In this document: piece after piece, positions 3,923 through 59,047 of the stretch
Layout of the letters: each line of letters begins with the position of its first letter
How positions within the stretch are numbered: the first letter of the stretch is position 1
Assembly: GCA_003833075.1 (NCBI GenBank)
Contig: RIAY01000007.1
Location: forward strand, 1-64,000
DNA: 64,000 nucleotides
Direction: 5' to 3'
Source: Muribaculaceae bacterium Isolate-036 (Harlan)
GTDB taxonomy: Bacteria; Bacteroidota; Bacteroidia; Bacteroidales; Muribaculaceae
Made by a program: the position numbers and the translations under genes
Notes under the pieces: model-generated
Told to the model about the DNA's origin: nothing
The model's database searches: none
Seen by the model: the letters and a program-made list of their open reading frames with translations, nothing else

Positions 3923-3928
3923 TCTGAA

Positions 3929-15383: not shown

Positions 15384-15485
15384 ACTTGACAAAATGCGGT
15401 TTGGGTTGTTATATTTGCAGAACCAAAGTGGCTGATTGTGAATAACTGTGAACGCCACCACTCAGAAATTTATAACATCGAAGAT

Positions 15486-21448: not shown

Positions 21449-22670
21449 GCTTATGGAAGACGTAATAGTTACACCTCCCGCCGACGACCGCTTCGAGCGC
21501 ATCGGTACCACTTACTACAAGATTGTCCGCCAGCCCAACGCTGCCGGACAGCTCATCGAGCGCAGCATACCGTGGACTATCGAGGCAATCCGTCAGGACT
21601 ACGGCAAGGACTTCCTTGCCAACGTGCCCAAGTACGACGGCTTCTGCTGTGTTCCCTCGCATCTGGACTATAAGCCGGTTGTCGGCAGTTTCAAGAACAA
21701 GTATTCGCCGTTGAGCCATATTCCCGCCGATGGAGAATGGCCATGCATCGAATCGCTTGTGCGCCATATCTTCGGCGAACAGTACGACCTCGGTCTCGAC
21801 TACCTGCAAATACTTTACACCATACCGTTGCAGAAACTTCCGATACTGCTGCTGGTGTCGGAGGAACGGAACACCGGCAAATCCACCTTCCTCAATTTCC
21901 TCAAACTGCTCTTTGAGGCTAATGTCACGTTCAACACCAACGAGAACTTCCGCAGCCAGTTTAACGATGATTGGAACGGCAAGCTGGTAATCGTAGTGGA
22001 CGAGGTGTTGCTCAACAAGCGAGAGGATTCCGAGCGTCTGAAAAACCTCAGCACCACCTACAACTACAAGATGGAGGCCAAAGGACGCGACCGCGAGGAG
22101 GTGAGTTTCTTCGCCAAGTTCGTACTATGCTCCAACAACGAGTATCTCCCCGTGGTCATCGACCCCGGCGAGACCCGCTACTGGGTGCGGAAGGTTCCGA
22201 GGCTTACCACGGACGATACCACGTTTCTGGAGAAAATCCGCTACGAGATACCGGCATTTCTCCATGCCCTGACCTATCGGCAGCTGATAACCGCCGAGGA
22301 AAGCCGCATGTGGTTCAATCCCGCGCTGCTCGACACCGAGGCATTGCAGAAAATCATCCGCGCCAACCGCAACCGTGTGGAGCTGGAGCTTGCCGAGCTG
22401 CTGACCGAGATAATGGACTCGCGCAAAATCGACGAGGTGGATTTCTGCTTCAACGACATCCTGAGTCTATTCGGCTACCGTCAAGTCAAGGCTGACCGTA
22501 GCCAGCTCCGGAAGGTGGTGCAGGACTGCTGGAAGCTCAGACCTGCCTCCAACTCGTTCTGCTACACGACCTACACCGTCGGGATGTTCCTCAACGAAGA
22601 AACATACGTTGAGACCCGCCGTTGCGGACGATACTACACCGTCACCCGTCAGATGTTGGAAAATTTATAA
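21441..22670 (+). CDS. primase/D5-P4-type NTPase-like replication protein (PrmN1-like), 409 aa
   Basis: Walker A ERNTGKST, Walker B LVIVVDEV. The NBU gene order is int, xis-like, prm, mob. Confidence 0.55.
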   Translation: MTELMEDVIVTPPADDRFERIGTTYYKIVRQPNAAGQLIERSIPWTIEAIRQDYGKDFLANVPKYDGFCCVPSHLDYKPVVGSFKNKYSPLSHIPADGEWPCIESLVRHIFGEQYDLGLDYLQILYTIPLQKLPILLLVSEERNTGKSTFLNFLKLLFEANVTFNTNENFRSQFNDDWNGKLVIVVDEVLLNKREDSERLKNLSTTYNYKMEAKGRDREEVSFFAKFVLCSNNEYLPVVIDPGETRYWVRKVPRLTTDDTTFLEKIRYEIPAFLHALTYRQLITAEESRMWFNPALLDTEALQKIIRANRNRVELELAELLTEIMDSRKIDEVDFCFNDILSLFGYRQVKADRSQLRKVVQDCWKLRPASNSFCYTTYTVGMFLNEETYVETRRCGRYYTVTRQMLENL

Positions 22671-30890: not shown

Positions 30891-30891
30891 G

Positions 30892-30964
30892 TGGTGCCAC
30901 CAGGAATCGAACCGGGGACACAAGGATTTTCAGTCCTTTGCTCTACCAACTGAGCTATGGCACC
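30892..30964 (-). tRNA. tRNA-Phe (anticodon GAA), no encoded CCA
   Basis: Reverse complement GGTGCCATAGCTCAGTTGGTAGAGCAAAGGACTGAAAATCCTTGTGTCCCCGGTTCGATTCCTGGTGGCACCA shows a cloverleaf with a GAA anticodon loop. Confidence 0.85.
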
Positions 30965-33148: not shown

Positions 33149-34438
33149 CTATTCCTTAACGTAAAAATCTATCAGAGAGTTGAGGGCACGGCGGCACGCG
33201 GGGCAGAATCCATGCCATTCATTGTCACGCATACGGCACCTGTCCGCAGGGCTGTATACACCACGAAACGAATATCCTCCTCCCTCGAACACACCCACAG
33301 GATACCGTTGCCATTCACTGCGTTGTGTCGGCACCGGAGTCCCTTCCTCAAGCAAGGATTTCCATTTTGAATCAAAATCCACGAGTGTGGTGATATTCGG
33401 CTCCCAAGGCTCCACATCAAAAGGATAGCTGTCTTCCATCACGTCTCCTTCATAGAAATATTCATCGGCAAGACCTCCGAAACTATGTCCGAACTCATGT
33501 ACGACCACCGGCGCGAAATTATCATGTCCCGTAGTTGTCAGCGTATAGCTATTGTAAATTCCGCCGCCCCCATACACATCGCAATTGGCAAGAATTATGA
33601 TATGTTCATAAGGTACATGCGAAACCGATTCGTGAATATCAGACACATTTCCCGTGGTCAGATAACGATCCGAATAAAACGTGTCGAAATTTGATCCGAA
33701 CGATGTCTTCTTCCATTCCTTTCTTCTCGGCACACTCACTCCCTCATCTTCAGAAACCGTAGCTACAGCCACAAAATTAAAGCACGACTCCCGGTCCTTG
33801 AACGGCTCATGGCTCAGTATCGCCGTCACAGCCTTCTCTGCATCCCTGTAAAAAGCCTCCGTCTGCGATGCATTATACCCCTCGGCAAGAATCGCCACAT
33901 CAATCACATCTTCAGCATTGCCATTCTTCCTCAGATAGCGGTATTCGCTTTTACCCCTCGTGTCCGACTCCTTTACGAGGATATCATCCGGTGAATAGAG
34001 ATGCGTATTCGAAGCCACAGCATCATGTCGGGCGTCAAGCAATTCAATCGTAATCCTTGCCGTCCTGCGAGGCAAAGGTATCAAAAACGTATTCTGAAAA
34101 GATTTCGAAGTTACGGCAGCCTCCGGCGTAGACTGCCACTCCCGGAAAAGAGTGGAAAAACTGTGTCTGTATATGGTATCGCCACTAAGAGAATCAGCCA
34201 CAGTCACTATCCCGTTGCCGACATAAGGAATACTGTCAAGATTACACCTGCGTCCTGCCCATCCGCCGAACTTATGCATCCTGTCAAGAAACACGTGACT
34301 CTCCTTCGAATTACCTGCAGCTATATAATCAAGTCTGAGAGTTGAATCACAGAACACCTTTTCAAAACTCACATCCGCCATCCCCACCATGCGATAAAAC
34401 ACGACAAATGCAGACAACAGCAACAATTTTCTTATCAT
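33149..34438 (-). CDS. secreted M64-family (IgA-peptidase-like) zinc metallopeptidase. The start is trimmed to the ATG preceding the signal peptide.
   Basis: HEFGHSFGGLADEY zinc-binding motif. N-terminal MIRKLLLLSAFVVF signal peptide. Confidence 0.65.
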   Translation of the reverse strand: MIRKLLLLSAFVVFYRMVGMADVSFEKVFCDSTLRLDYIAAGNSKESHVFLDRMHKFGGWAGRRCNLDSIPYVGNGIVTVADSLSGDTIYRHSFSTLFREWQSTPEAAVTSKSFQNTFLIPLPRRTARITIELLDARHDAVASNTHLYSPDDILVKESDTRGKSEYRYLRKNGNAEDVIDVAILAEGYNASQTEAFYRDAEKAVTAILSHEPFKDRESCFNFVAVATVSEDEGVSVPRRKEWKKTSFGSNFDTFYSDRYLTTGNVSDIHESVSHVPYEHIIILANCDVYGGGGIYNSYTLTTTGHDNFAPVVVHEFGHSFGGLADEYFYEGDVMEDSYPFDVEPWEPNITTLVDFDSKWKSLLEEGTPVPTQRSEWQRYPVGVFEGGGYSFRGVYSPADRCRMRDNEWHGFCPACRRALNSLIDFYVKE

Positions 34439-34596
34439 ATTAACCGTCAATTGATTTTTACTGACCACTTCAAGGTTATTCCATAAGACGAACCGGAATA
34501 ACAAAAAGCATGGCTGCAAATGTAATAAATTCTTTTTTGGAAACATGAAGTTTCTAATTTTTTTGTTAGCTTTGGCTAAAACAATACAGAACAACC

Positions 34597-35034
34597 ATGC
34601 GCAAGTCAATTCTTATACTCGCTTTGCTTCTCGCGAATCCGTTTTACGTCATATGCCTTGCTGAACAAAACAGGCGCCACACACCGGCAGCGAAGAGCAA
34701 CGTGCCGAGAAGGATCATACACACCTGTATCCGACCATGATTATCTACCCTCCGACCGCCCCACCCTCGACGGCACTTTCTGGATTGAAGACGGCAAGCC
34801 ATGGGCGTGGCATACTCTAAAAGCGGTCGCCTCGAAGGTCCGTGGATACAAGAGAAAGAACCGCTTACACCCCCGAACCACGGTCATGGCATGATATTCA
34901 AAGATCTTGAAGGACGCAACATCCTTTCAGCACATAGCCATAGCGAAATCAACGGCAGATATGTACGCCGTCCCGTATTCTGGGAGATCGATCTTACAGG
35001 CGACAAACTCCGCATTATCCGCAAAATCGACTGA
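34597..35034 (+). pseudogene. frameshifted remnant of a secreted protein (signal peptide in one frame, the body split across two other frames)
   Basis: ATG plus signal peptide MRKSILILALLLANPF at ~34597. ORFs 34658..34894 and 34801..35034 continue the same apparent protein in shifted frames. Confidence 0.4.
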
Positions 35035-43860: not shown

Positions 43861-46800
43861 CTATCTGTCGTTAACTACCTTTACCACACGTGTCGTGCCA
43901 TCGGAAAGTTCCTCCAGCACAATATAGATCCTGCCATCAGCCGTTTCAGGCACAGGCACCTCAATTCCTTCCGTATTGAAGAATCTGCGGCTGACAACGT
44001 TTTCCCCATCATTTTCAATAGAACCGATTCCTGATGTATGGTTCACTGCCAGTTCATATGTCTTTGACAGGTCACCTGCCGTAGCAGTCACGAGAATCTT
44101 GCCTATGACAGTTGCTGCGAAGCAAGCCTTGTTTCCATCAAACACGAGATCCTTGCAATCGCTTGACCATTTCACGGTTCCTACGCCACCTACATTGAAA
44201 TCCTTTGTCACACTTGATTGCGTGTCACCATCGGCAAGGATCAAACCTGCAGCATGGAACAATGCGACTTCATTTCCTACGGCATCTTTCACTACCGGAT
44301 ATGTATAGTCATCCGTCGAAACGAAACCTTCACCGAGATCAAGAGCGGCAAGTTCCTTTGCAGTTATCTTGCGCGCCTCAAACGCCTCGTCATTGACACT
44401 ATTGTTGATGTCAAGATAGAAGGTATTCTCCATCTTGTTGTCTGCCGTCCATTGTTTTCCGTTTGTAAAAGACACACCCACTATTGAGCCGCAAGAGTCA
44501 GCAGGAGCTTCGATCTTGCCGGAATTATAACAATTGACAAACTGAGTCTTCCCCTTTTCGGGAGTTGCCACAAGACCTGCCACACGGGCAAGCCCCTTCA
44601 CGGAACCCGCGTTGTAGCAGTTTCTGAATGTTGCGCCCGAATGCGCAGCCAGACCGCCTATCTCAAATGAAGGCTCATCTTTTGTCACAGTAGACTGCAC
44701 ATTACTGAGCGATGAAACGCTACCTGTGTTCCAGCACCCCTCGACAAGACCGTCTATAGGCGATCCCCATGCGATCAACCCGCCTGCACGATCTGTCTTT
44801 CCTGTAATGTTACCCGTATTGTAACAGTTTATCATCTGTGGACCATTACCTGCAAATTGCGAAGTAATGCCCGCTACCATACGGTTACCCTCGATATCAC
44901 CGACATTCCGGCAATTCCTGAATATCACCTTTCCCGATGCGGAGCCGGTGATGCCACCGCCCTGGTTGCCATCGGCAATGATCGTTCCTTCGTTGACACA
45001 ATCGATAAACGATGCCTCGTCAGGAGTAGAAGCAGATCCCGGAGTACCGATTACCTGTCCCGCTATTCCGCCGGCATAGACATTGAAATTGGATATGATC
45101 GTACCTGTATTGGTGCAACGAGTGAACGAAGACCCGGGCGTATAGGATGTTACAAATCCAGCCGTTGGATAACCCGTGCCGAGAGATTTGGTCGATTCTG
45201 CAGAAATGTCACCATTGTTAAGGCAATCAGTCATTATATATTGAGCGTTGGCTGATGCCGAAGATGTTGCCGGAGTGCCGGCAATGTACCCTGCAACCTT
45301 ACCTGCCGCGCTGACCGGAGTGCTGTTGGTACAAGATACGAAGGAATAAACGCCATTGCCCTTAGTGCCAAGAGCGTTTCCGATGAATCCGGCTACAGTG
45401 TGAGCCCACTCGGGTGTGGCAACGATTATTTCTCCATTGCTTTTGCAATTCTCAAAAATTGCGGCACCTGAACTTGAAACAAAACCACCTATAGTGACTG
45501 CCGTTGCTTTGGAATATGATGCCGTCTGCTCTATCTTGCCCTTGAACTCGCAATCCTTATATGTCACTCCGGCTGCACCTGTGGCAACAAGACCACCGAT
45601 CGATGCCATATTGCTCTTTATCGAGCCGCCGAACACCACGCCATTAAGCACTGCGCCTGCATAAGCATTGCCTACGACTCCGGATACATTCGCCTTATTT
45701 GTTGTCACCGAAACATTCGAAACAACGTTCTCCAGTGTTCCGTAAAGTTTATCAACAACAGGACAGGCATATGTATGCGTAGCGTTTAACGTTCCCTCAA
45801 TCTTAAGGTTCTTGATTGTCGCATCGGCACCGACGGTTCCGAACATTCCACTCGCCGAATTGGCAATCGAGCTTAAGTCAACAACTTTTATCGTGTGGTT
45901 AGCACCATCGAGCGTTCCGCTCATCACGGTCACTCCATCGCCACCTATGCGTACGGGAGTAATGCCTGAAAAGTCAAGGTCCGCAGTTATCCTTACAGTC
46001 TGACCGATCAGGTCCCTGCCTGTCTTGTTCATGTGTGTTGCAAGAGCGTTCCAGTCCCCCGTATTATTGAGAAGATATGGATTATCGGCTGTACCCTCTC
46101 CGTTGAGAGGCATCGCGGGAAGCACACGGATAAAAATCGGACGACGCACATTTGCCGCGTTAACGGCTATTAGCGTATCCGCCACTATCTCCGTTACGTT
46201 CTGCGGGACTATCAATACCCCATTCTCAATCTTGAACGCGCTTCCGTCAGAGAGTGACCATGCTGCGTTTCCATCAAGTTCCACATTGCTTGCGAGTTCG
46301 CTGAAGATCTCTCCCGACACAGCTTTGGCGATGACTTTACGTGCAGCATCCACCTTAGTCTCGTCTGCGAATGTTTTCAGCGCGGGATATATACCGGCAC
46401 GGTAGTCCCATACATCTGAGACAAGACCTTCAAGGGCTTCACCGGAAGTCAGTGCCGTTGTTTCAACACCATTCATATTCACAACGTCAGCGTTAGCTCC
46501 TGCCTTAATACCTATAGTCTGTGCATCGAAATAAACATTCTCAACATTCTTCGTACCGGCAAGACCGAGAACAGCACCTACTGTCGCCTTGTTGCCGCAA
46601 TATACATTGCCGAGACTCAGGCAGCCGATTATGTTATCATTTGCCGATCCTGCTGCCGATGTGCCCTCCATAGAGCCACTTATGCCGCCGGCATTATTAT
46701 TCTGGGCGTAAACGGTGCCGTAATTCACACAATTTTTTATTGCCGAACCGTTGCTGCCTCCTGCAATACCGCCTACCCGCTGCAACTGCTTGATATAGTT

Positions 46801-49800
46801 TGTGCAGATAGCCGACGCCGAGATATCGCCTGTATTCACGCAGTTCTCTATCATACCATTGGAAGAGCCCGCTATGCCTCCGACGTTGGCATATCCGGAA
46901 CGTATGTTTCCCGCATTATAGCAGTCAGAGATCCTGCCTCCCTTATTCACCATTCCTGCGATGCCTCCTACCCAGCATGAATAGCCGGTCACGTCGGCAT
47001 AGTTACGGCAGTTTTCCACCGTTCCGTCAAGCGATGCCACAAAAGCGGCGCAGGTGCCGTACATTTCAAACTTGGATCCGGCTCCGATGTTAAGATTGCG
47101 CACTACCCCATTCTCGCCCAAACGTCCGAAAAGTCCGCCCATTGTGCGGCATTCCGAGGTGTTGAGCGTTCCGACTTCTGTCTCCGTCGGTGTCTTTGAC
47201 CACACAACCCTGTCAGGTATAAGTATGTTGTCGATCGTATAGCCTCTGCCGTCAAACACTCCCTGGAATTTTACCGATGCCGAACCCGCTGAAGCGTCTG
47301 CGGATATTCCGTCGAATGCCGGGTCATGACCGAGATCTATGTCGTTTGTCATGGCAAAGTATACACCGTCGAATGTCTGACGCTTTGCCGTAGTAGCCTC
47401 GGATAGCAGGATGAGATCGTTCTTCGTCTTTATGAGCAGCGGCGAATCAGCCGTGCCTTCCCCCTCGAATGGTATGGGGGCAATGTTCAGGAAATGATAT
47501 GTCTGCACATCTCCGTTGACCACATAAAGAGTATCCGTGCCAAATTCCGTTCCGATTTCAAGGGTCTTGTTTTCAACAATTCTTGAATAGTAACCTTCTG
47601 TATAGAGATTGCGCCCTTTTGAAATACGGAAAAGCGTGTTGCCAAGGGCAGTAAGCGGCGTGTTGTTTGAGATTTTACGGAAACTGTCGCCTGAAGCTGT
47701 CAACACGGCAGATGCGCTGAATTTTGCCGCCTCCGTCTCTGCCAGAGCCTTGATGCGCGGATATGCTCCTTCCGTGAAAGTCCAGACATCGGCAGGGAAA
47801 CCGGCGGGACCGCCCGCTGCAGTCAGTTCGGCAGTGGTGGAGCCGAAGCGCGTTGACTGGAAATCGGTTACTTTCCTGTCGTAATATATATTGGTCAGTT
47901 CAGGATTTGTTCCGTCCAATATCTTGCCTATCACTTCATTGCAATTATTACGGTCATACTGGTATGTCTCCACCTCTACGGAAGCCGACGTATAACAGTT
48001 TATAACCTTAGGAGTTATTTTTGACGATCCGAGCTGTATCTGACCTATTATACCTCCTCCCATCCTTGTGAAGCAGTGAACCACTCCGGAGGAGTAGCAG
48101 TTCTCGACAACTCCGCTTGACAGAATGCCGACAACTCCGCCGACTTGCGACTGTGAGCTGTAACCGCGCACAACGCCAGACGAGAATGAGTTGCGCAAGG
48201 CAACGTTCTGAAGCGTGCCCACGACACCTCCTATAATCTGTCCGTTATCGTTCTGCAGATTCGCATATGTAATAAGTCCGCTGAAATACAGGTTTGACGC
48301 GTCCGCATCAAGAATATTGCCCGCGACACCTCCGGCAGGGCTGTTATCTCCCATGATATGAACCGTTGTCCCTACGGCAGAACAATTGTTCATGCCGCCA
48401 TGAACCTCGCCAACGACACCACCCAGGAAACCGGTTCCGGCAACGGTGCCTCCGGTGACGCGGCATTCGGACATGCTGCCCGACACTATACCGGCAACGC
48501 CTCCCGTACCTGTGCGTGCTCCGCTGACAGACGGCTTATTCACTGTTATGTTCTCGAGCGAACCGATACACCATGCGGCAACCGGTCCCGCGCTGAGATA
48601 TTGACTGGAAACTACAGGTTGTTCGATCACTATATTCTTTATCACCGTCGTAGTGTCACAAATGCCGAACAGACCGGCATACGCATCTGCACCCGAATTT
48701 ACGTTAAGCCCACGGATAGTATGCCCCCTGCCATCCAATGAGCCTGCAAACCGCTGATTCCAGGTTTTGCCAATGGCATCGAATGCATAACCCTTCATGT
48801 CAATATCGGAGGTAAGGGCAAAGTGCTTGCCTATATATGTACGTGTATATTTCTGTGTTCCGTACACGCCCACATAGTTATCATCGCTGTTCACCTTGTC
48901 TGAAAGAAGAATGAGATGATCAAGAGATGAAATCAGGTAAGGGCTTTCAACGGTTCCGTCTCCCTCAAATCCGTCAACACTGAGTTCGGGATATTTCCAT
49001 GGAGTATCGGCAGAAAGCCTTGCCTCCGTCAGCACACCCGCATATGACTTAGCCTCCGCGCACAGCAGCGACCAGTCTGTCCAGGAGAGAGTGCTGTTGT
49101 CGGCTGCCGGAGCTGCCGCAGTTGCAATGATAGGCGAATATTTAGTAAGATTGCCCTTATCGTTAAATTCCAGACACTTGATCATCAACCACGAACCGGA
49201 TCCGTTTATAAATGCCGTCTGGTTGTTGATCTCTGCCGTGCGGTCTCGATTCAGTTTAATCTCGATATCCAGACCACGGTTGAAGATATTCGTAACCGCC
49301 AGCATGTTTGGCGATGTCTGGTTTATGATGACATAATATCCGGCTTGCCTGTTGTCTGAAGTTTTATATGTCATTGTGCCATTGGGCATTCCCATTGCCA
49401 GATTGAAGTATGCGCCTACGAATTTATCCTTGTTGGCACCCTCCTTCTGAACATATATTCCCCACCATGCCTCAGTGAAATCTATGGAACCGCCATCAGT
49501 CACCTTGCCGGTGATCTGCCTGTCGTAAGCGGGAGTTCCATCCGTCTGGGTCACTGCAATGTCAAGACGACCGAGCGATTCATCCGTCATCACATACTGG
49601 CTGGGGATCGAAACCGTCGACGTAACCTTGTCGTAATGGGCACGCACATTGCATCCATTCCAGAAGTTATTGATGGTAATCGAGTCACCGTCTGCATCGG
49701 GGGTCAGCTGCATTGTTGAGCCGCCATCGTAACTTGCGCTCACAAGTGTCTGATAAGTGCCCACATAATAACCACCGATATCGCCTGCCTGTCGCGATTC

Positions 49801-50061
49801 TGCCGCTTTCACAGGTCTGTTTCTGAGTATCGGCGACACTTTCCTTTCCGGCTTAATGATAGCTTTGGGCAATACCTTAAGCCTCAATCCCCCTTGAAGC
49901 GATTGGGGGTTGAAAGAGTTGTGACTTGCAGCCGTAGCGACCGATCCGGCTATCCGACCGTCAAGTTCGGCAGATGCCGACAGCGTCTCTGTCTGCGCCT
50001 GGGCAATCAGGCTTGCCGCAAGCATGCCCGACACCAGTAAAGAAGTTATTGTCCTTCCCAT
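43861..50061 (-). CDS. giant secreted GLUG-repeat protein (IgA-protease-like beta-helix repeats) with a T9SS C-terminal sorting domain. The start is trimmed to the ATG before the signal peptide.
   Basis: Signal peptide MGRTITSLLVSGMLAASLIAQAQ. Dozens of GG[IV]AG...N[CS]YN.G.V repeats. C-terminal ...RIYIVLEELSDGTTRVVKVVNDR. Confidence 0.6.
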   Translation of the reverse strand: MGRTITSLLVSGMLAASLIAQAQTETLSASAELDGRIAGSVATAASHNSFNPQSLQGGLRLKVLPKAIIKPERKVSPILRNRPVKAAESRQAGDIGGYYVGTYQTLVSASYDGGSTMQLTPDADGDSITINNFWNGCNVRAHYDKVTSTVSIPSQYVMTDESLGRLDIAVTQTDGTPAYDRQITGKVTDGGSIDFTEAWWGIYVQKEGANKDKFVGAYFNLAMGMPNGTMTYKTSDNRQAGYYVIINQTSPNMLAVTNIFNRGLDIEIKLNRDRTAEINNQTAFINGSGSWLMIKCLEFNDKGNLTKYSPIIATAAAPAADNSTLSWTDWSLLCAEAKSYAGVLTEARLSADTPWKYPELSVDGFEGDGTVESPYLISSLDHLILLSDKVNSDDNYVGVYGTQKYTRTYIGKHFALTSDIDMKGYAFDAIGKTWNQRFAGSLDGRGHTIRGLNVNSGADAYAGLFGICDTTTVIKNIVIEQPVVSSQYLSAGPVAAWCIGSLENITVNKPSVSGARTGTGGVAGIVSGSMSECRVTGGTVAGTGFLGGVVGEVHGGMNNCSAVGTTVHIMGDNSPAGGVAGNILDADASNLYFSGLITYANLQNDNGQIIGGVVGTLQNVALRNSFSSGVVRGYSSQSQVGGVVGILSSGVVENCYSSGVVHCFTRMGGGIIGQIQLGSSKITPKVINCYTSASVEVETYQYDRNNCNEVIGKILDGTNPELTNIYYDRKVTDFQSTRFGSTTAELTAAGGPAGFPADVWTFTEGAYPRIKALAETEAAKFSASAVLTASGDSFRKISNNTPLTALGNTLFRISKGRNLYTEGYYSRIVENKTLEIGTEFGTDTLYVVNGDVQTYHFLNIAPIPFEGEGTADSPLLIKTKNDLILLSEATTAKRQTFDGVYFAMTNDIDLGHDPAFDGISADASAGSASVKFQGVFDGRGYTIDNILIPDRVVWSKTPTETEVGTLNTSECRTMGGLFGRLGENGVVRNLNIGAGSKFEMYGTCAAFVASLDGTVENCRNYADVTGYSCWVGGIAGMVNKGGRISDCYNAGNIRSGYANVGGIAGSSNGMIENCVNTGDISASAICTNYIKQLQRVGGIAGGSNGSAIKNCVNYGTVYAQNNNAGGISGSMEGTSAAGSANDNIIGCLSLGNVYCGNKATVGAVLGLAGTKNVENVYFDAQTIGIKAGANADVVNMNGVETTALTSGEALEGLVSDVWDYRAGIYPALKTFADETKVDAARKVIAKAVSGEIFSELASNVELDGNAAWSLSDGSAFKIENGVLIVPQNVTEIVADTLIAVNAANVRRPIFIRVLPAMPLNGEGTADNPYLLNNTGDWNALATHMNKTGRDLIGQTVRITADLDFSGITPVRIGGDGVTVMSGTLDGANHTIKVVDLSSIANSASGMFGTVGADATIKNLKIEGTLNATHTYACPVVDKLYGTLENVVSNVSVTTNKANVSGVVGNAYAGAVLNGVVFGGSIKSNMASIGGLVATGAAGVTYKDCEFKGKIEQTASYSKATAVTIGGFVSSSGAAIFENCKSNGEIIVATPEWAHTVAGFIGNALGTKGNGVYSFVSCTNSTPVSAAGKVAGYIAGTPATSSASANAQYIMTDCLNNGDISAESTKSLGTGYPTAGFVTSYTPGSSFTRCTNTGTIISNFNVYAGGIAGQVIGTPGSASTPDEASFIDCVNEGTIIADGNQGGGITGSASGKVIFRNCRNVGDIEGNRMVAGITSQFAGNGPQMINCYNTGNITGKTDRAGGLIAWGSPIDGLVEGCWNTGSVSSLSNVQSTVTKDEPSFEIGGLAAHSGATFRNCYNAGSVKGLARVAGLVATPEKGKTQFVNCYNSGKIEAPADSCGSIVGVSFTNGKQWTADNKMENTFYLDINNSVNDEAFEARKITAKELAALDLGEGFVSTDDYTYPVVKDAVGNEVALFHAAGLILADGDTQSSVTKDFNVGGVGTVKWSSDCKDLVFDGNKACFAATVIGKILVTATAGDLSKTYELAVNHTSGIGSIENDGENVVSRRFFNTEGIEVPVPETADGRIYIVLEELSDGTTRVVKVVNDR

Positions 50062-50215: not shown

Positions 50216-52417
50216 TTAATCCACAACATGGACTTTTGTGGCTCTCCCGCCACTCACTTTTATATATATTCCCGGCACATTGGGAGCGCTGACTTGGTAA
50301 CCGGAGATACTGTACCATTTCACTTCTCCACACTCCTGATCAGTTTCTTCATACAAGACACTGACTCCTGATTCCTTATCCTGCATAAGAGTGATTTCCA
50401 TTAGTTCCACCGCACATCGTGCCGATGCGCTTCCGGTGAACTGCGCCAGTCTGAACGCCGGTTTCTCAAGTGATCCGGTGTTGTAATGTAGAGTTATTGT
50501 CTCACCTCCTCGCACGGATGGGTTTGCCGAACCTTCGACTGTATTCACCGGGACCCATGTCAATCCATTGTCTATTGAAGAGTAAAGACGGAAAATGGCA
50601 TTAGAGGCAGTGGCATTGTTTACCCGTATTGACACGTTCTCCACCTTGGCATCAATGGCTGAGCACTCCGCTTCAGAGCCTTTTATGGTTGTAAGCACTG
50701 TGTTTTCAGAATCTTCCATAGCTTCTATCCTTGCACCCTTTGAAAAATTCCAAGAGGCAAATTTACCCGATATCCCCTTGGCATCTCCGGTTGTAGGAGA
50801 CATGTTGGCAAAATCTTCCACCAATGTATCCACATCGTCTTCCATAACGCTGAAAGTAACGGTTCCGTCAGATTTAAGCTCAATATCATTGATGATAAAG
50901 GGAGTGGACTGCATAGTCCACGAACGCAGCGAGGGGGTAGTGGCATTGTCAAGCCTCGTCACGTTGCCGCTGCCGGGAAAGGGGTCTCCGTCACTATCGG
51001 TCAGAGTCGCACCCGACACTTGGGGCGAGGCGCGAAGCAATGTGTAGTAGGTACGCCCGGATGTCGCATTGACCCGATTGTTTTCCCATACCGCCGGATT
51101 AGTCAAATCTACCCTGTGGACCAGCAGCCCCTCGCCGGGAAGATATTCATCCCAACGTGTTTTCGTGCGGCTTTCAAGCAGGAAAAATTCATTTTCCACA
51201 GCTGAATTTATCCGGCATCCGTCCGGTGTGTCACCTTCATTAAGAGGAATTATGCCATATTCCCCGCTCCGGGTTATAAGCCTGGGAGTTGCAAAACCAA
51301 GTGCATAACGTTCGAAAAGGGAATATCCGCAAGGGGTGCGACTTTTGTTCAGATATGATCCGCTTGCCATCACTGACCATTTTGACGGATGTTCTGCCTG
51401 CCCTCCTGTTTCATAATCCACATCATATAAATCGGGCAAACCGAGCACGTGACTGAACTCATGACATATTGTCCCGATGCCGTCAAGCAATTTATTTGCC
51501 GGTGCCCCATAAAGTTCGGTAGAACAAGCATAACGGCCAAAAGAAACCCCGTCAAGACTAAGGTTCATCACCATTGAGGCATGTGGCCATATGAGAGTCT
51601 CGTCGTTTCCCGCGAAATTCGACCCGGCGCCTGAGAAAATAAAATAAACCATATCCACCTCGCGATTTCCATCAGTATCATATACGGAATAATTCACTTC
51701 TGAATCAGCAGCGCGCAACGCGGCACTGACAAGAGTCTGCGCACCTGCCGTCTGTCTTGCATAATGTCGCGAATAATCTATTTTCACGGGACCAACCACA
51801 TCAAACCTGGGATCAAACACTCCTCCTGAGTTTTCATAATAATAATCACGCACTGAACCTGTGTATTCCACCTTTGTCGGTATCATGTGATCGGTCATAT
51901 AACCATCGTAACCCTCCATGTTTATCATCTCGTCGAAAACCATTTGTATATCATTCCTTGAGAACGGAGTGTCGTTATATTCCACAAGAATTACAAGCCC
52001 ACGGAAGCTATCGTAATCGTATTGTCCTGTTTCAAGTGAGTATCTTCGCCGTTCAGGCATTTTTTGTTTCCGGTTTTGCCGGAACACCGGTCTCACGCCC
52101 TTTGACCGTGTCGGTGCTTTCTTGCCGTCAGCGGCACCGATGCCGGTGGAAACAAGCATGCCGCCGGCGGATAGTTCCGCATATTCCCAAATTCCGGTTA
52201 TATCGTTTAGCACTACAGCATAGCCATCCGCAGTCATAGTATAGTTATAGGATTCATCACCGAAGAGGCGCAACGTCACTTCGGTTCCATCAGGCTGTGT
52301 AAACGTGCTGGGATCGGGATTGGCAACTACTGCGTTCGCCCTGATACCGGCAAAAGCAACCATTCCACCGGCAAGCATTATCCCGATGCTTTTTTTAAAT
52401 GAGTTTTTTATAGCCAT
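50216..52417 (-). CDS. secreted M6-like (InhA-type) zinc metalloprotease with a putative T9SS C-terminal domain
   Basis: HEFSHVLGLPDLYD motif. N-terminal signal peptide. C-terminal ...GIYIKVSGGRATKVHVVD. Confidence 0.6.
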   Translation of the reverse strand: MAIKNSFKKSIGIMLAGGMVAFAGIRANAVVANPDPSTFTQPDGTEVTLRLFGDESYNYTMTADGYAVVLNDITGIWEYAELSAGGMLVSTGIGAADGKKAPTRSKGVRPVFRQNRKQKMPERRRYSLETGQYDYDSFRGLVILVEYNDTPFSRNDIQMVFDEMINMEGYDGYMTDHMIPTKVEYTGSVRDYYYENSGGVFDPRFDVVGPVKIDYSRHYARQTAGAQTLVSAALRAADSEVNYSVYDTDGNREVDMVYFIFSGAGSNFAGNDETLIWPHASMVMNLSLDGVSFGRYACSTELYGAPANKLLDGIGTICHEFSHVLGLPDLYDVDYETGGQAEHPSKWSVMASGSYLNKSRTPCGYSLFERYALGFATPRLITRSGEYGIIPLNEGDTPDGCRINSAVENEFFLLESRTKTRWDEYLPGEGLLVHRVDLTNPAVWENNRVNATSGRTYYTLLRASPQVSGATLTDSDGDPFPGSGNVTRLDNATTPSLRSWTMQSTPFIINDIELKSDGTVTFSVMEDDVDTLVEDFANMSPTTGDAKGISGKFASWNFSKGARIEAMEDSENTVLTTIKGSEAECSAIDAKVENVSIRVNNATASNAIFRLYSSIDNGLTWVPVNTVEGSANPSVRGGETITLHYNTGSLEKPAFRLAQFTGSASARCAVELMEITLMQDKESGVSVLYEETDQECGEVKWYSISGYQVSAPNVPGIYIKVSGGRATKVHVVD

Positions 52418-52487
52418 GTCATTATTCGGTATAAAATAAGTAGGGTGTTCAGCCATATATTCTTACAAAACTGTAACCTAAACTATT

Positions 52488-52555: not shown

Positions 52556-55500
52556 TCAGTTTTTAGCGATCTTCTTCTCTACCTTCATTGTGCCGTCGGT
52601 GAAGACGGTGCGCATGATATATACTTGACCGGGTTCGGGGGTGACAACCTGACGACCCTGAAGGTCAATAAGCACAACTTCCTTAACTTCCTTGCCTGCG
52701 AAAGATTCCTCTACAGCCGATTGTTCCTTGTAATCTACCAAAACTTCGAAGTTTTTCTTGAAACCTTTGTAAAGGCATGTGAGCATCACTTTGCCGGAAG
52801 CTGTCGGGACAGCGCGTCCTCCGTCAATCTTCAGAATCTTGGAAGCGGACTCGGTTGATGCAGGTTCGACATCAGTATCTTCGTCATCCACGAAATCGGT
52901 TGCAATCCATTCACAACCATCAGGTCCTACGAGTGTGATTTCTCCTGAAACCTTGCCGTAAGTATCGTTCTCGGCAAGTAGAAGAAGAGCCGAGCCGGCA
53001 TTTGCCGCATCATTGTCGGCAAAGCTTGCCAATACGGGATAGCCACCCCAGGCAGGATTAGCGAAGCCTTCGCCTATCATAAGCTCCTTAAGCTCTTTAG
53101 TGGTCTTCTTTGAACCCGGAACTGTACGGAACTCGCGACCGGGGTTAATCTCAACATCATAGAAACAGTTTTCATGACCCTCCAGCATCAGACGTTCAAC
53201 GCCATCACAAAGTTTAGTATATGAGCCAGAATAGGTTGTCCCACTCCACAAATAACGCTCGCTATTATCTGAGATTATGTTAGTCTTAAGACATGTGACT
53301 TTACCGGAGTTATAACAATTACGCACTACCGAATATGGATAGAAAACGCCTCCGAAAAGACCTCCCACTCGCCTTTCGGCAGTTACATTTCCGGTGTTAT
53401 AACAATTTTCTACTCTATGAGGTGCATCTTCGTTACAAGTAGAGAGATACCCTCCGAGACCTCCTGCATTACCCTGCGTAGCCGTGCCTGTATAATTGGA
53501 AACAACATCTCCGATATTGAAGCAATCTCTCATGACTGCCGGATACGTAACATCACCTGATGCAAAATATCCGACAAGACCTCCTACTGCATAATTGGTG
53601 GCTGTCACATCTCCTGCATTGAAACAGCGCTCCATGACACCATTCATTTTACCTACCAGACCGCCTGCTGTCAACGCACCGTTTGCAGGATTGGATCCGA
53701 TTGAATAAACATCACCCGTATTATAACAATCGCTCATATATCCGAACTTGGCTAAGTCACCTATAAAACCGGATATTCCTGCTCCGTTTCCTCTGACTTC
53801 ACCGGAATTGAAGCACCTTTCTATTGTAACCAATGATTCTTTGGTCTTTCCGGCACTGGTTTTAGAAGAGAAACCATATGCGTATGCAGTCGAGGACCCG
53901 TTTGATGCAGTCACATCACCTCTGTTGGAACAATCAGAAATTTTCCAACCTGCATTTATTACTCCTATAGCTCCCATTATATTGTTGGAACCTTTAAGAT
54001 TGCCGTAATTGTGACAATTCTTAATAAAGCCGGTCGTTCCATCTTCGTCAATATCGGATATTGATGACAAAGTATATACAATTCCATAAACGTCACTTCC
54101 CGGTTTGGCAAGCTGGGAAAGGTCTATATCGGATTTATTCTCACAATCCTCCATATAACCTGTAGCTTCAACTTTATAAGCCACACCGGCAATTGTACTT
54201 TTAGCCATCAGGGAACCTTCATTCACGCAACCCTTCATGCCTCCTGCGACATTGGCGACAATACCCATCGCCGAAGTTGTGGTAGAAGTCACGGAACCCT
54301 TGTTGACGCAATTCTCAAGCAGCGATCCTGCCTTGGTCTCGTAAACGATACCCGTTGCATAAGTTATCTTGGATACTACGGCTCCTTCGTTCACACAGTT
54401 CCTGATTATTGAATTCTCATATGAACGGCAAGCGATTCCCGATGCGTAACCGCTTGTAAGTGTCTCAACAGATCCCAGGTTGGTCACATTCTCGATCAGA
54501 CCGTAATTATAACCCACGACTGAACCAATATAACTGTGAGCCTTAAGCACTCCGTCAAGTGTCAGATTCTTTATCGAACCTGTGCTTCCGAGAGTTCCGA
54601 TAAGTCCGAGGTACTTGCCTACGTACAAATTCGGTCCCTGAAGTTTTGTTTTGGTAGAATTATTGTTTGAATAGACATAATTCTTTATCGTGTGTTTCGC
54701 GCCGTCAAGCTCTGCCTGGAAATTGACCCCATTCACTGCAAGCAGTTTGATTGAGTCGCCCTGGAAATCAATATCATTCTCAATTCTGAAGAAATTACCG
54801 CTATATTCCCATTGGGAGGACTCCATAAAGTCGGCAAGTTTGTTCCAGTCTGCCGGAGTCTCAATCAGATAGGGAGATTCCTTCGTGCCTTCTCCCTTGA
54901 GAATAACAGGCACTGCGTTCAGATCGAAAGACTTGGCATAATTTCCACATGTCGCCGTTATCCTGTCTGAGACAAGCGTCATGCCTTCCGGCTTGATGAT
55001 TGTCAACAGGTCACCTTCTATCTTGAAACTTTCGTTTTTCTCAAGTTTGAACTCAATGCCTTCTGCCTTTGAAAGGGGAACTTCGGCAAGCACGTTTGTC
55101 CTCATCTGCTTCGGAGCAAACGCCACATAAATCGAACGCATCGCCCGGGATGCATTCTCGTTTGCAAACGCCTTCAGCACAGGATATGCATTGGGTGTGA
55201 AATCAAATTCTTCTGCGGGTAGACCAGCAAGTGCATTTCCTGCAACAAGCTCGCTTGAAGAAAGTCCTGTGGCTCCCTCGACTCCATTGTTGTTTGCGCC
55301 CCCGTTAACATTGACAGATGCGTCATAATAGTTTCCTGTGAGAGTTATGGAACCTGATGCAGAACCAAGAACACCTCCGCGTGACAGAGTTGATTCAAGC
55401 ACGTTGACAACTCCGTTGTTTATACACTGCGCGATATCTCCTTCTCCATTATAATTGCTTGCAGCTCCTGCGATACCACCGACTTTGTCAAAGCCTTGAA

Positions 55501-58500
55501 CACCGCCGTTATTCACGCTGCACTCTATCTTGCCGTAATTTGTACCAACAACACCGCCTACGCAGTTGGTCTTGGTTTTCTCCGTCACTTTATCAAACGA
55601 CTTGTTGAATACATCGCCATCGTTCTGACACTTGGAAACACACGCCGTAGCGGCATTATAGCCGACTATACCGCCGCCATTCGCTGTGCCGAAGTTTACA
55701 GCTCCTCCATTGTAACATTTGTTTACCTTTCCGCCGGTATGGTTGTAACCAACGATACCGCCGACATATGAAGTCATGGCATTGACAGCAGTGTAATTAC
55801 GACAGTTTTCAACAAGACCCTGATTGACACCGGCAACAGAGCCGCCGTAAGCGTAATGCATCAGATTGCAATCTTCGGCGATATTGAGATTGCGCACAAC
55901 CCCCTTCTCTCCAATATAAGCGAAGAACCCTGTATAATATCTTGATGCAGTATTCGATACAGCATTCTTGTCATCACGCACGACCGCATCAATCTTCAAT
56001 CCATGCACTGTATGACCAAGTCCGTCGAAGATTCCGCAGAACTGGTTTATAGTGGCATTCGCACCTGTAGCGCCATAACCAACACCACTGAAATCTTCCG
56101 CAGAGGAGAAGTCTATGTCATTAGCCATAACGAAGTAGTCGCCATCGTGACTCTGCTTATAGACGCTGACAGCCTCATGAAGTTTCCTGAAGTCATCAAC
56201 CGTCTTCATCATATATGGGTCTCCAGCGGTGCCTTCACCTTCGAATACCTTCGGCACAACCGCCAGACGATACAGCTTGATACCCCAGTTGTCGGCAGTA
56301 GATGCGGTAATTACAGAGTTTGAATATTGATCTTTTACAATCACCTTATTGCCCTGGACACGCAGTGCCTTAGTTTCCGTAGCCGTCTCACCGGCTTCCT
56401 CATCAAAATTCAATGCCCATGTTACATTGGAAGACTGGGTAAGCCCCACTTCCTCCCTGACCTTCGCGCTGTTATCAACTTCGCGCATCAATAACGGAAG
56501 AGAGGAAATCTCCTGAGTCTGCGTGCCAGTTCCCGTTGCAAGTACGGGATACTTGCCGGATTCTGATTTCCATACCTTGGAATCAAATCCGGAAGGCAAA
56601 GCACTTATAAATTCTCGAGTAGATTTGCCATAATCAGGATGATCGAATCCCATAACCTGATTGTCGAAATAACAGTTTTCTATGCATCTCTCCAATGGTC
56701 CGGGACCAACATATGAAGAACTTAAATGGAAATTTCCAACAATTCCCTTATTGGGAGATGCAGAAGTGGATATTATCTGACCGGAGTTATAGCAATTCCT
56801 GATATTGCTGATATTGATCATCTCTATCGGTTTACCGGATGTAAACGAATAACTGACACCGAGATAACCTATAATACCGCCTACATTCTCGCTCTGATCC
56901 GACTTCATGATCGTGCCTGAATTGTAGCAGTCAGTCAGCTCCGAACTATTGGTATACCCTACGAGTCCTCCGGTATTTGTATCATCGTCTCCGCCATTTG
57001 GACTGCCAAAAGAAGCCCTCTTTGCAGAAATCGCCGCCGTATTAAACGATTCTGAGATCCTGGTTGAAAAAGAATAACCGACAAGTCCGCCAAGACATGC
57101 ATATCCTATTTCATCGGATATAACACCTGCTACCTGACATTTCGAAATCTCACTGGAGAAAGCTTTTCCGACAATTCCACCACCCACTACACTCGACATC
57201 ACAGCCGATGCTCCGTCAATCGTTATGTTTGTCCTTACATCGCATGTAGATATGGTTGCGCTATGGGTATATCCTGAAATTCCGCCTCCACTTCCTTTCG
57301 ACATTACATTACCGGTGAAAGAACATCCGGCAATCGAACCGCCAAGAGCTTGTCCGACAACACCTCCTCCGATCTCTCCGTCGCAATCCACAACGCTCGA
57401 TGTAATTGTGATATTACTTATGTCGGCATAACTTGTGCCGGCAAGGATTCCCACATAGTTTCCTGTAGCCGTTACACCCGCTTTGTCAAACATAATGTTA
57501 TCAACAACAGATCCTTCTCCGAGCACACCGAAAAGTCCTGTGTCACAGAAACCTTTTCCGTCTGCTAAGAAATTGGATATTTTGTGTCCGTTGCCATGCA
57601 ACTTACCGCAGAAAGGTGTAGCCACCGAACCGACCGGAACATATGAAGTAGGAGACACACCCGAGAAATCCAGATCACCACCTAATGCAAAATGAACACC
57701 TTCGAAAGAGTTGCCTCCCTCTGAAGCCTGCGAAATTGCCTGAATATGGGAAACAGACTCTATCAGATAGGGGGAAGCTTCCGTTCCCTCTCCTTTGAGA
57801 TCAAGGGCGACAGGTGCCGGATAAGTTATCTGAGCCTCCGTGGTGACAGAAACGTCGTTATACATATAACCTATCGCTCCGCCCGGATTAGCACGTGCGG
57901 ATATAACCCAACCACCGATCTTCAACTCGCCGTCACCGGTATCCTTAAGCACCATGTGGTTTTTCCAGTCTACGGAAACTTTCCATTTTTGCGTGTTCAC
58001 ATCCTGCTCGAATGATGCCGGATAGTTCATAAATTCTCCATACATCATATGAGTATACATCTGCTGTGGAGAGATAAGAATACGCTTGTCGACTGTCAGT
58101 CTCGCTGTGAGAATATCGTTGGAATTGATGTTGCCGAAGCCATAGAGAACCACCTCGTTTGATGCAGTCTGTTCAATATACATCTCATACATCATGAGCT
58201 TGTTCTGGGAAATATTGAAGCAGGCTACCTCTGTGTTGGGAACAACCCATTCGCTGCCTGAGAATACATTGAAAAGACGTCCCCAGTTGGGAGACTTCTG
58301 CAATTCGCCGTCTACTTCCTGCATCTGCGTGACCATGACACCCCATGTGCCGAGCACAATCGTGCCGTCGCTCTGCAATGTGCCCTTGAGGTCTCCTTCC
58401 ACAGTATAGAATTTACCCTCCTTGATAAGCATGGGCACCATACTTACCTCTCCGTATGAAGCATGTTGGTAGATTTTCTGTTGTGGAATAAGCACCTCTC

Positions 58501-59047
58501 CGGTCTGAAGATTGATCTTCATGTCAATCACCGCATCAAGTCCGTAAACATTACCAAGGGCATAAACCCCTTCTGTTTCCGTTGATTCAACTGTGATCCT
58601 GGAACTATACATCACGGATTTGTAATTGAGATCCTTCGTCATCATTGTGCCGGTGACAAGCTTAGGGACGGATGCCCCATCTGCCTTACGGATCTTCTTC
58701 GGAGCGACGGAGACAACTCCCTTCCCTCCTTCTACTGCCACTCCTATCACGGAATCCTCCGAAAGGATCACATCCGCAGAGGGGCGGGCATCGACCACTT
58801 CCGCAGGCACAAACTCATCGCCCGCCTGAAGAACAGATGAAACAGGGTTGTCAGATCCCTATCCGGGATATTCCACTCCAGAAGAAACGATCTCTTGTGG
58901 CTGCATCTGCGTTCCGGCAGGCAGCTCGTTTTTCACAATGGCTTTTGCCCGCTCCTCAATCTCCGCCTTGTTGAGACGGGGAAGAACCGCGGAACCTGCC
59001 AGTGCGAAAAACACAACCAGCGTTGCTGACAGTAGTTTTCTTACCAT
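52556..59047 (-). pseudogene. giant GLUG-repeat T9SS cargo protein whose signal-peptide exon-like N-terminus (59047..58862) is separated from the 2084-aa body (58810..52556) by an in-frame TAG at 58859-58861
   Basis: The same reading frame runs throughout. MVRKLLSATLVVFFALAGSA signal peptide, then ...GVEYPG*, then GSDNPVSSVLQAGDEF(V/M)PAEVV... The body has a T9SS CTD (...VYIMRTVFTDGTMKVEKKIAKN). Confidence 0.5.

What the first reader, a model, noticed from the sequence alone, without database searches (positions are those of the whole stretch)
58810..59047. In-frame amber codon separates the signal peptide from the body of a 2100-aa GLUG-repeat T9SS protein
ORF 59047..58859 (MVRKLLSATLVVFFALAGSAVLP..., a clear signal peptide) and the 2084-aa ORF starting at 58810 are in the same frame. 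They are separated only by the TAG at 58859-58861 and 16 sense codons. Without the upstream piece the giant protein has no signal peptide. Yet it ends in a T9SS C-terminal domain, which is only meaningful for a Sec-exported protein. This is either a recent nonsense mutation (pseudogene), a sequencing error, or a translational read-through or ON/OFF switch for a surface antigen.
Basis: seen in the sequence. Interest (0 to 1): 0.55.

Follow-up and report, generated by a model that had tools for sequence, protein, structure and literature searches.

The report
Natural nonsense allele in surface-protein gene
One base change (TCG to TAG at codon 63) cuts a 2163-residue secreted GLUG-repeat protein of a mouse-gut Muribaculaceae strain just after its signal peptide; most sister strains carry the intact gene, so this is an ordinary natural knock-out allele and not recoding or a sequencing error.

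Summary
On the minus strand, ATG 59047 opens a 62-codon signal-peptide ORF. It ends at TAG 58861-58859. The same frame then runs 2100 more codons to 52556.

It is not a sequencing error. The identical 62-residue peptide plus TAG occurs in at least 12 independent assemblies, including the cultured strain Muribaculaceae bacterium Isolate-036 (Harlan), which matches the window exactly.

It is not recoding. All ten contigs shown for the same locus, found through a neighbouring gene, carry one uninterrupted 2163-residue gene with TCG (Ser) or CCG (Pro) at codon 63. The upstream tandem paralogue A and a homologue in another species are also uninterrupted. TAG ends ordinary genes in the window (argC). 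There is no suppressor tRNA and no RNA structure.

TAG alleles show no further decay. The gene is a gene-conversion hot spot with paralogue A, so repair or spread of the stop by conversion is possible but unproven.

The T9SS C-terminal domain is only weakly supported.

Verdict: a segregating null allele in one of three tandem paralogues. It is ordinary and of low interest.

The parts
58859..59047 (-). Truncated product of gene B: 62 codons (signal peptide plus about 40 residues) ending at the premature TAG. NCBI annotates it as hypothetical protein ROS83576.1.
58988..59047 (-). Sec signal peptide (residues 1-20, MVRKLLSATLVVFFALAGSA). It is identical in paralogue A and in the homologue of another Muribaculaceae species.
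   Evidence: read from the sequence
58859..58861 (-). Premature TAG at codon 63. The mutated base is window position 58860 (C to A on the coding strand). Sister alleles have TCG (Ser) or CCG (Pro).
58811..58858 (-). Sixteen sense codons between the TAG and the first possible restart codon (GTG 58810). They are homologous to residues 64-79 of the intact protein.
52556..58858 (-). Body of gene B: 2100 codons plus stop, with no other stop or frameshift. It has no signal peptide of its own. NCBI annotates 52556-58810 as ROS83575.1 (2084 aa).
56909..56980 (-). Best-scoring GLUG motif (PF07581) in the body. For the whole protein: 66.9 bits, E 9.3e-19, cut-off 20.5.
52559..52783 (-). C-terminal domain of about 75 residues, shared with paralogues A and C and with the M6 peptidase. 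It behaves like a C-terminal sorting signal and is weakly similar to the T9SS C-terminal domain (CTD) of RgpB.
59225..59232 (-). TAAATTTG, a match to the Bacteroides -7 promoter consensus TAnnTTTG, 178-185 nt upstream of the ATG. This is a candidate promoter by inference only.
   Evidence: sequence; the consensus is recalled from the literature and was not tested
60431..64000 (-). Tandem paralogue A (3' part; its 5' end lies beyond the window). In related loci it is 2152-2183 aa, is intact, has Ser or Pro at the codon that is TAG in B, and acts as a donor of gene-conversion tracts into B.
50216..52456 (-). M6 (immune inhibitor A-like) metallopeptidase immediately downstream of B, with the same C-terminal domain. 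It could suffer polarity from the premature stop.
43861..50061 (-). Third giant paralogue C (2066 aa), with its own signal peptide (MGRTITSLLVSGMLAASLIAQAQ) and the same C-terminal domain.

Best explanation
Gene B is one of three tandem genes for giant secreted GLUG-repeat proteins in a mouse-gut Muribaculaceae species. In this strain it carries a single-base nonsense mutation, TCG (Ser63) to TAG. Translation from the normal ATG stops after 62 residues, that is, after the signal peptide plus a short linker. The remaining 2100 codons are left without an export signal. Any re-initiation product would stay in the cytoplasm and could not reach an outer-membrane secretion system. The allele is therefore most likely a natural knock-out. 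It is tolerated because paralogues A and C remain intact.

The allele is a minority variant in a nearly clonal population where most strains keep the intact 2163-residue gene. The body still looks pristine. Either the mutation is young, or the gene is constantly reshuffled by gene conversion with paralogue A.

Shown here: the stop, its single-base origin, its presence in many assemblies, the intact alleles, and the normal use of TAG as a terminator.

Inferred: loss of function, tolerance through redundancy, and any selective cause such as escape from host IgA or from a phage.
For: The in-frame TAG and the continuous frame are seen directly.

The exact 62-residue peptide plus TAG occurs on 22 contigs read from 26 index blocks. 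They include MAGs, ENA and Logan assemblies and the isolate genome of Muribaculaceae bacterium Isolate-036 (Harlan). One JGI contig also has it.

A look-up through the neighbouring 70-residue ORF does not depend on the state of codon 63. All ten contigs it displayed have B as one 2163-residue gene (2192 in one case), with TCG or CCG at codon 63.

L033 (TCG) and the TAG allele L005* differ only at nt 188 over the first 954 nt. The Ser63 version of the same 5' haplotype is seen on 13 contigs, against 12 for the TAG peptide.

Paralogue A has Ser or Pro at this position, and a homologue in another species has Gln.

TAG terminates argC and a GNAT gene in the window, and 8 of 36 long ORFs.

The window holds no tRNA other than tRNA-Phe. 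The RNA downstream of the TAG has no unusual structure (z = -0.31).

There is no signal peptide after the TAG.
Against: None of the 11 TAG alleles has a second stop or a frameshift in up to 6.3 kb. The seven other variants private to TAG alleles are 2 non-synonymous and 5 synonymous, not the excess of non-synonymous changes expected under free decay. This could mean the body is still useful. It is equally explained by a young mutation and by import of tracts from functional copies.

The TAG sits on several downstream haplotypes. The allele has therefore persisted through, or spread by, recombination.

No expression or protein data exist.
Confidence: 0.8

Rival explanations
1. The stop is one state of a reversible ON/OFF variation run by gene conversion. 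The TAG lies in a 5' block that is 91% identical to tandem paralogue A, with long perfectly identical flanks. A-to-B conversion can therefore erase the stop, and recombination can spread it. This would give heritable switching of one surface antigen.
For: The minor allele equals a paralogue-A allele at 127 of 181 polymorphic sites in B. About 8% would be expected for random point mutations (my estimate).

The 1384-nt upstream spacer is almost invariant (0-3 differences), while B differs at 50-290 sites.

All 9 differences between the TAG allele L005* and the intact allele L023 are A-type in L023. They include a tract at nt 188-245 that covers the stop.

Both TAG and TCG occur on both downstream haplotypes.
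Against: The direction of the L005*/L023 event cannot be determined. Import of a TAG tract into an intact allele fits equally well.

Intact alleles with B-type flanks exist (L033, L035, L028), so simple descent explains much of the pattern.

A is a full-length gene, not a silent cassette. No TAG was seen in 14 A copies. No within-culture switching data exist. Nothing suggests a dedicated mechanism as opposed to ordinary concerted evolution.
Confidence: 0.2
2. The TAG is decoded as an amino acid. This could be programmed read-through, a genomic suppressor or pyrrolysine, or suppression by a tRNA brought in by a TAG-recoding phage of Bacteroidales. The full-length exported protein would then still be made, constitutively or conditionally.
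For: The 2100 codons downstream are fully open in all 11 TAG alleles, and the private variants lean synonymous. The related species has Gln at the equivalent position, which a Gln-inserting amber suppressor would mimic. TAG-to-Gln recoding in gut phages is known; this is from my own knowledge and was not tested here.
Against: The stop is not conserved: most sister strains, paralogue A and the other species all have sense codons. TAG ends normal genes in the same window. There is no suppressor tRNA in the window. There is no RNA structure. The base after the stop is G, which is not known as a leaky context (from my own knowledge). Pyrrolysine machinery is not known in Bacteroidota (from my own knowledge).
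Confidence: 0.03
3. The stop is a sequencing or assembly artefact.
For: None was found. It was a legitimate prior for a single base in a single assembly.
Against: The identical TAG is present in an isolate genome, several MAGs, and ENA, Logan and JGI metagenome assemblies from different projects and assemblers.
Confidence: 0.01
4. The true gene starts downstream of the TAG with its own export signal, and the 62-codon ORF is an unrelated upstream peptide.
For: NCBI annotates two separate hypothetical proteins.
Against: Intact alleles, paralogue A and the other species all start at the same ATG with the same signal peptide and read straight through. There is no hydrophobic segment after any downstream start.
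Confidence: 0.01

Closest known systems
Segregating premature-stop alleles of bacterial surface proteins (for example inlA premature stop codons in Listeria monocytogenes; recalled from the literature, not tested here)
   Same: A single-nucleotide nonsense mutation in a large exported surface protein. It is present in part of a natural population, while other strains keep the full-length gene.
   Different: Here the stop lies at codon 63, right after the signal peptide, so essentially nothing of the protein is made. The gene has two intact tandem paralogues and is embedded in active gene conversion.
Gene-conversion antigenic variation (Neisseria pilE/pilS, Borrelia vlsE; from my own knowledge)
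   Same: Mosaic polymorphism of a surface-protein gene that can be traced to a nearby paralogous donor. The flanking DNA is almost invariant.
   Different: The donor (A) is a complete gene with its own signal peptide, not a silent cassette. No dedicated machinery or switching rate is known. The stop codon is a point mutation, not a product of the system.
T9SS cargo proteins with a type A C-terminal domain (for example P. gingivalis RgpB)
   Same: An N-terminal Sec signal peptide plus a conserved C-terminal domain of about 70 residues at the very end of the protein. A profile of that domain hits the RgpB C-terminal domain (CTD) structures 5hfs, 7pq4, 5ag8 and 5ag9 end to end (E 0.014-0.19). Foldseek lists the RemA and RemZ CTDs.
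   Different: TIGR04183 and PF18962 do not detect it (0 of 40 and 1 of 40 relatives). The spacer between the 'DLxGRxV' and 'GxxYI' motifs is much shorter. T9SS machinery was not examined.
TAG recoding in gut phages and other stop-codon reassignments
   Same: An in-frame TAG inside a long ORF.
   Different: It is a single site, absent in most sister strains. TAG is a normal stop in neighbouring genes. There is no suppressor tRNA in the window.

Membership tests
Nonsense (premature-stop) null allele / incipient pseudogene | Both sides of the stop are homologous to one continuous protein in relatives | tested here: met
   Paralogue A, 10 sister-strain alleles of 2163 aa (one of 2192 aa) and a homologue in another species align across the site
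Nonsense (premature-stop) null allele / incipient pseudogene | Close relatives carry a sense codon one substitution away | tested here: met
   TCG versus TAG. L033 and L005* differ only at nt 188 in the first 954 nt.
Nonsense (premature-stop) null allele / incipient pseudogene | The stop is real (reproducible in independent data) | tested here: met
   At least 12 assemblies, including a cultured isolate
Nonsense (premature-stop) null allele / incipient pseudogene | Full-length product is absent | not testable with these tools
   Needs proteomics or a Western blot on Isolate-036
Programmed stop-codon read-through / codon reassignment | The stop codon is conserved at the site among orthologues | tested here: not met
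   Ser, Pro or Gln codons in all ten sister-strain contigs shown, in paralogue A and in the other species
Programmed stop-codon read-through / codon reassignment | The codon is not used as an ordinary terminator in the genome | tested here: not met
   TAG ends argC (38113) and a GNAT gene (35819), and 8 of 36 long ORFs
Programmed stop-codon read-through / codon reassignment | Suppressor tRNA or Pyl/Sec machinery, or a stimulatory RNA element | tested here: not met
   Only tRNA-Phe is present in the window. Folding z-score is -0.31. The rest of the genome was not examined.
Classical phase variation (simple-sequence repeat or invertible promoter) | A repeat tract at the switch site, or an invertible segment seen in both orientations | tested here: not met
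   No repeat around CCCGGATAGGGATC. The only long inverted repeat is 73% complementary. The spacer ORF has the same orientation in all of the roughly 25 loci.
Gene-conversion antigenic variation | Mosaic polymorphism traceable to a paralogous donor, with conserved flanks | tested here: met
   127 of 181 minor alleles equal paralogue A. The spacer has 0-3 differences per 1384 nt.
Gene-conversion antigenic variation | Silent donor cassettes feeding one expression site | tested here: not met
   A is a complete ORF with a signal peptide in all 14 copies seen
Gene-conversion antigenic variation | Measurable switching within a clonal lineage | not testable with these tools
   Needs deep sequencing of cultures
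T9SS cargo (type A C-terminal domain) | Match to TIGR04183 / PF18962 | tested here: not met
   No hit for B, A, C or the M6 peptidase, even at E <= 10 on the last 120 residues. Among 40 relatives, 0 hit in Pfam and 1 hit marginally in NCBIfam.
T9SS cargo (type A C-terminal domain) | Similarity to solved C-terminal domains (CTDs) and strictly C-terminal position on diverse secreted cargo | tested here: inconclusive
   The profile hits the RgpB C-terminal domain (CTD) at E 0.014-0.19. Foldseek lists RemA and RemZ CTDs at E 0.2-1.3 from a model with pLDDT 62. There are 203 representatives at E <= 0.001; nearly all of the 150 listed match at the extreme C-terminus.
T9SS cargo (type A C-terminal domain) | T9SS machinery genes in the genome | not tested
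   None found among the window genes examined; the rest of the genome was not available
GLUG-motif proteins (PF07581) | Pfam match above the gathering score | tested here: met
   66.9 bits against a cut-off of 20.5, E 9.3e-19

The most novel reading that the evidence does not exclude
The amber codon is not a dead end. It is one state of a heritable, reversible ON/OFF variation of a giant surface antigen, reset by gene conversion from the intact tandem paralogue A. L023-type alleles would be natural revertants that co-converted A-specific markers at nt 229, 234 and 245. The variation would be maintained by fluctuating pressure from host IgA or phages. An even more exotic reading, which I put at about 0.01-0.02, is that the TAG is suppressed only when a TAG-recoding phage delivers an amber suppressor tRNA.
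Probability: 0.15. Interest if true: 0.5.

Novelty: new member of a known kind. Interest (0 to 1): 0.2.

Why it matters
The practical value is for annotation. ROS83576.1 and ROS83575.1 are two halves of one interrupted gene. Strain Isolate-036 (Harlan) is a natural knock-out of one of three giant GLUG-repeat proteins, and near-isogenic intact strains exist. That gives a ready-made comparison for asking what these proteins do in the mouse gut, for example in IgA coating, phage adsorption or adhesion.

The wider locus is more interesting than the stop itself. The coding sequences are highly mosaic between almost invariant flanks. That pattern points to gene conversion as a generator of surface diversity in Muribaculaceae.

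Tried and rejected
Protein searches gave little. A word-index search with the fused N-terminus found only one fragment, P0001. The same search with the C-terminus found only P0002. Neither helped with orthologue sampling.

The species-representative genome scan returned only one locus, from another species (L008). It was useful as an outgroup, but the species' own representative was not found.

Pfam and NCBIfam scans for a T9SS sorting domain were negative, both on full-length proteins and on the last 120 residues.

The AlphaFold model of the C-terminal 100 residues, built from a 4-sequence alignment, was poor (pLDDT 62). Its Foldseek hits are all non-significant.

The PDB profile search with the 4-sequence alignment found nothing relevant. 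Only the 35-sequence profile reached the RgpB C-terminal domains (CTDs), and only marginally.

Literature searches for GLUG or T9SS in Muribaculaceae found nothing relevant.

Invertible-promoter idea: rejected.

Genome-wide TAG recoding: rejected. The two other places where long same-frame ORFs are separated by TAG (38113, 35819) are normal gene boundaries in the arg operon.

dN/dS on whole alleles was not used. The variation is imported in blocks from paralogue A, so it does not measure selection since the nonsense mutation.

Full report
**1. The observation**

Reading the minus strand and translating 59047..52556 confirms the finding exactly. ATG at 59047 opens MVRKLLSATLVVFFALAGSAVLPRLNK...GVEYPG (62 codons). 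Next comes TAG at 58861-58859. The same frame then runs for 2100 more codons to the stop at 52556. The first possible restart is GTG at 58810, 16 codons after the TAG.

The leader has the usual Sec signal-peptide layout: R3 and K4, a hydrophobic core, and an A-L-A|G cleavage site. Nothing after the TAG looks like an export signal.

Pfam confirms the GLUG motif in the body (66.9 bits, cut-off 20.5).

**2. Source organism**

The exact 62-residue and 2084-residue products are NCBI ROS83576.1 and ROS83575.1 of Muribaculaceae bacterium Isolate-036 (Harlan). They lie on a 146,921-nt contig of a cultured mouse-gut isolate. NCBI annotates them as two separate hypothetical proteins.

**3. Not an error**

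The identical 62-residue ORF ending in TAG was found on 22 contigs read from 26 index blocks. These include MAGs (GCA_948903545.1, GCA_949092695.1, GCA_948967895.1), ENA assemblies from several projects and a Logan assembly.

A JGI metagenome scan used a pattern that left the codon free. It found one more TAG contig, L034.

**4. Not recoding: the intact gene is the common state**

The look-up in section 3 is conditioned on the stop. I therefore sampled the locus through the neighbouring 70-residue ORF (window 59565-59777), which does not depend on codon 63. All ten contigs shown carry gene B as one uninterrupted ORF of 2163 residues (2192 in one case). That is exactly the fused length. Codon 63 there is TCG (Ser) or CCG (Pro).

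The free-codon JGI scan gave two TCG alleles of B and one TAG allele. L033 (TCG) and the TAG allele L005* differ only at nt 188 across the first 954 nt. An 82-residue contig-end fragment has the same 5' haplotype but Ser63. It is recorded on 13 contigs, against 12 for the TAG peptide.

The upstream tandem paralogue A (2152-2183 aa) begins with a nearly identical signal peptide and has Ser or Pro at the site. A 78%-identical homologue in another Muribaculaceae MAG has Gln there.

The stop is therefore a single C-to-A change at window position 58860 on the coding strand.

TAG is an ordinary terminator in this genome. It ends argC at 38113, directly before argD, and it ends a GNAT gene at 35819. 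It closes 8 of 36 long ORFs in the window.

ARAGORN and Rfam find only tRNA-Phe in the window. The 141 nt around and after the stop fold no better than shuffled sequence (z = -0.31).

There is no simple repeat at the site. There is no convincing invertible element upstream: the best inverted repeat is 73% complementary. The spacer ORF has the same orientation in all loci.

**5. State of the interrupted gene**

All 11 TAG alleles, five of them partial, have no second stop or frameshift. Apart from the nonsense change, only seven variants are private to TAG alleles in my sample, 2 non-synonymous and 5 synonymous. So there is no sign of decay.

This does not show that the body is still used. The mutation may be young, and most variation here is imported from functional copies (section 6).

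**6. The locus is a gene-conversion hot spot**

The 1384-nt spacer upstream of B differs at 0-3 positions among about 20 strains. B itself differs at 50-290 positions per 6.5 kb, in obvious blocks.

A and B are 91% identical in the first 300 nt, 58-69% in the middle and 98-99% at nt 3300-4200. At 127 of 181 polymorphic sites in B, the minor allele is the base found in paralogue A. Random point mutation would give roughly 8% (my estimate).

The TAG lies in the highly similar 5' block, with long perfectly identical flanks. It occurs on both downstream haplotypes (ADVI and AEII), and so does TCG.

All nine differences between the TAG allele L005* and the intact allele L023 are A-type in L023. They include a tract at nt 188-245 that covers the stop. 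This is what repair of the stop by conversion from A would look like. Import of a TAG-bearing tract into an intact allele fits the data as well, and intact alleles with B-type flanks exist (L033, L035, L028). Reversibility by conversion is therefore possible and mildly supported, but not shown. Nothing suggests a dedicated switch.

**7. Mechanism**

The best-supported reading is a natural null allele. Translation ends after the signal peptide and a short linker. The body cannot be exported, because any re-initiation product lacks a Sec signal. Paralogues A and C (C has its own signal peptide) plausibly buffer the loss.

Polarity on the downstream M6 peptidase gene is possible but untested.

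Why the allele persists is open. It could be neutral in a redundant family, or selected by IgA or phage pressure on a surface antigen.

**8. The T9SS claim**

The curated models TIGR04183 and PF18962 do not hit B, A, C or the M6 peptidase. This holds even on the isolated C-terminal 120 residues at E <= 10.

Still, the last 75 residues or so are shared by all four proteins. A profile of them finds 203 cluster representatives at E <= 0.001. Among the 150 listed, nearly all matches are at the extreme C-terminus, in proteins of very different sizes.

Forty of these carry typical secreted cargo: C10 peptidases, Omp28, BspA-type LRR, pectate lyase, reprolysin-like proteases and GLUG. Only one has a marginal TIGR04183 hit.

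A 35-sequence profile reaches the RgpB C-terminal domain structures 5hfs, 7pq4, 5ag8 and 5ag9, aligned end to end, at E 0.014-0.19. A low-confidence model (pLDDT 62) lists the RemA and RemZ C-terminal domains among non-significant Foldseek hits.

I read this as a short, divergent relative of the type A sorting domain. That is plausible but not proven. T9SS machinery was not checked.

**9. Comparison and verdict**

This is a new instance of a well-known kind: a segregating premature-stop allele of a surface-protein gene. It fails the defining tests for programmed read-through or codon reassignment and for classical phase variation. It shares mosaicism with gene-conversion antigenic variation but not the silent-cassette architecture.

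Interest is low for the stop itself. The mosaic, conversion-driven diversity of the giant GLUG paralogues, and the unrecognised C-terminal domain family, are the more noteworthy by-products.

Noticed in passing
window 43861-64000 (and L019-L028): An island of surface proteins and proteases. Three tandem giant GLUG-type paralogues (C 43861-50061, B 52556-59047, A 60431 to beyond 64000) lie with an M6 immune-inhibitor-A-like peptidase (50216-52456) between B and C. A C10 (streptopain-like) peptidase with a Spi inhibitor domain lies just beyond the window. An M64 'IgA peptidase' is at 33149-34609.
   Followed up: partly
window 52556-59047 versus paralogue A (L002:2150-8617 and others): B is highly mosaic among otherwise near-identical strains, with 50-290 differences per 6.5 kb against 0-3 per 1384 nt in the adjacent spacer. 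70% of the minor alleles equal the paralogue-A base. A and B are 98-99% identical at nt 3300-4200 but about 60% in neighbouring segments. This indicates active gene conversion between tandem paralogues.
   Followed up: partly
window 52559-52783, 43864-44088, 50219-50443, 60434-60658: A C-terminal domain of about 70 residues (consensus ...GI...EV....YYDLxGRxVxxPxxGxxYIxRxxYxDGTxxxxK...). It is found at the very end of 203 cluster representatives with diverse secreted cargo. PF18962 and TIGR04183 do not recognise it. It is marginally similar to the RgpB C-terminal domain (CTD). It may be an unmodelled short variant of the T9SS sorting domain.
   Followed up: partly
window 1-26000: A lower-GC (38-44%) stretch holding mobile-element genes: two tyrosine integrases (13756-15018 minus, 15438-16949 plus), a helicase (17876-19558), a primase-like protein (21441-22670), a MobA/VirD2 relaxase (24498-25967), a Tad2-like anti-Thoeris domain protein (12776-13309) and a radical SAM protein (5800-6615). 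tRNA-Phe at 30891-30964 (minus) lies nearby.
   Followed up: partly
window 59048-60430: A 1384-nt spacer between A and B that is almost invariant across about 20 strains. It contains a doubtful 70-codon ORF (59565-59777, plus strand), a weak 41-nt inverted repeat (59421-59461 / 60211-60251, 73%) and a Bacteroides-type -7 box (TAAATTTG, 59232-59225 minus). No inversion was seen in any assembly.
   Followed up: partly
L007 (ERZ27269680 k119_92655) 1-2470 and 8893-10347: This TAG-allele contig has an inverted fragment of another paralogue upstream of the spacer, in place of the end of A. The 3' end of B is A-like (about 78% to B). It is either a real rearrangement between paralogues or a chimeric assembly.
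   Followed up: partly
window 50216-52456; L002, L003, L019-L028: The M6 peptidase is called as 746 aa in the window, L005 and L006, but as 720 aa in L002, L003 and all ten intact-B loci. In L029 it is split into 450 + 103 aa. The start-site or allele difference was not examined.
   Followed up: no
L001 (ERZ807552 NODE_3348) 2005-2859: P0001 is a 284-residue fragment 90% identical to residues of about 250-460 of B. It has an unrelated N-terminus (MKPTKDY...) and an unrelated C-terminal tail. It is probably a rearranged or broken copy in another strain or species.
   Followed up: no
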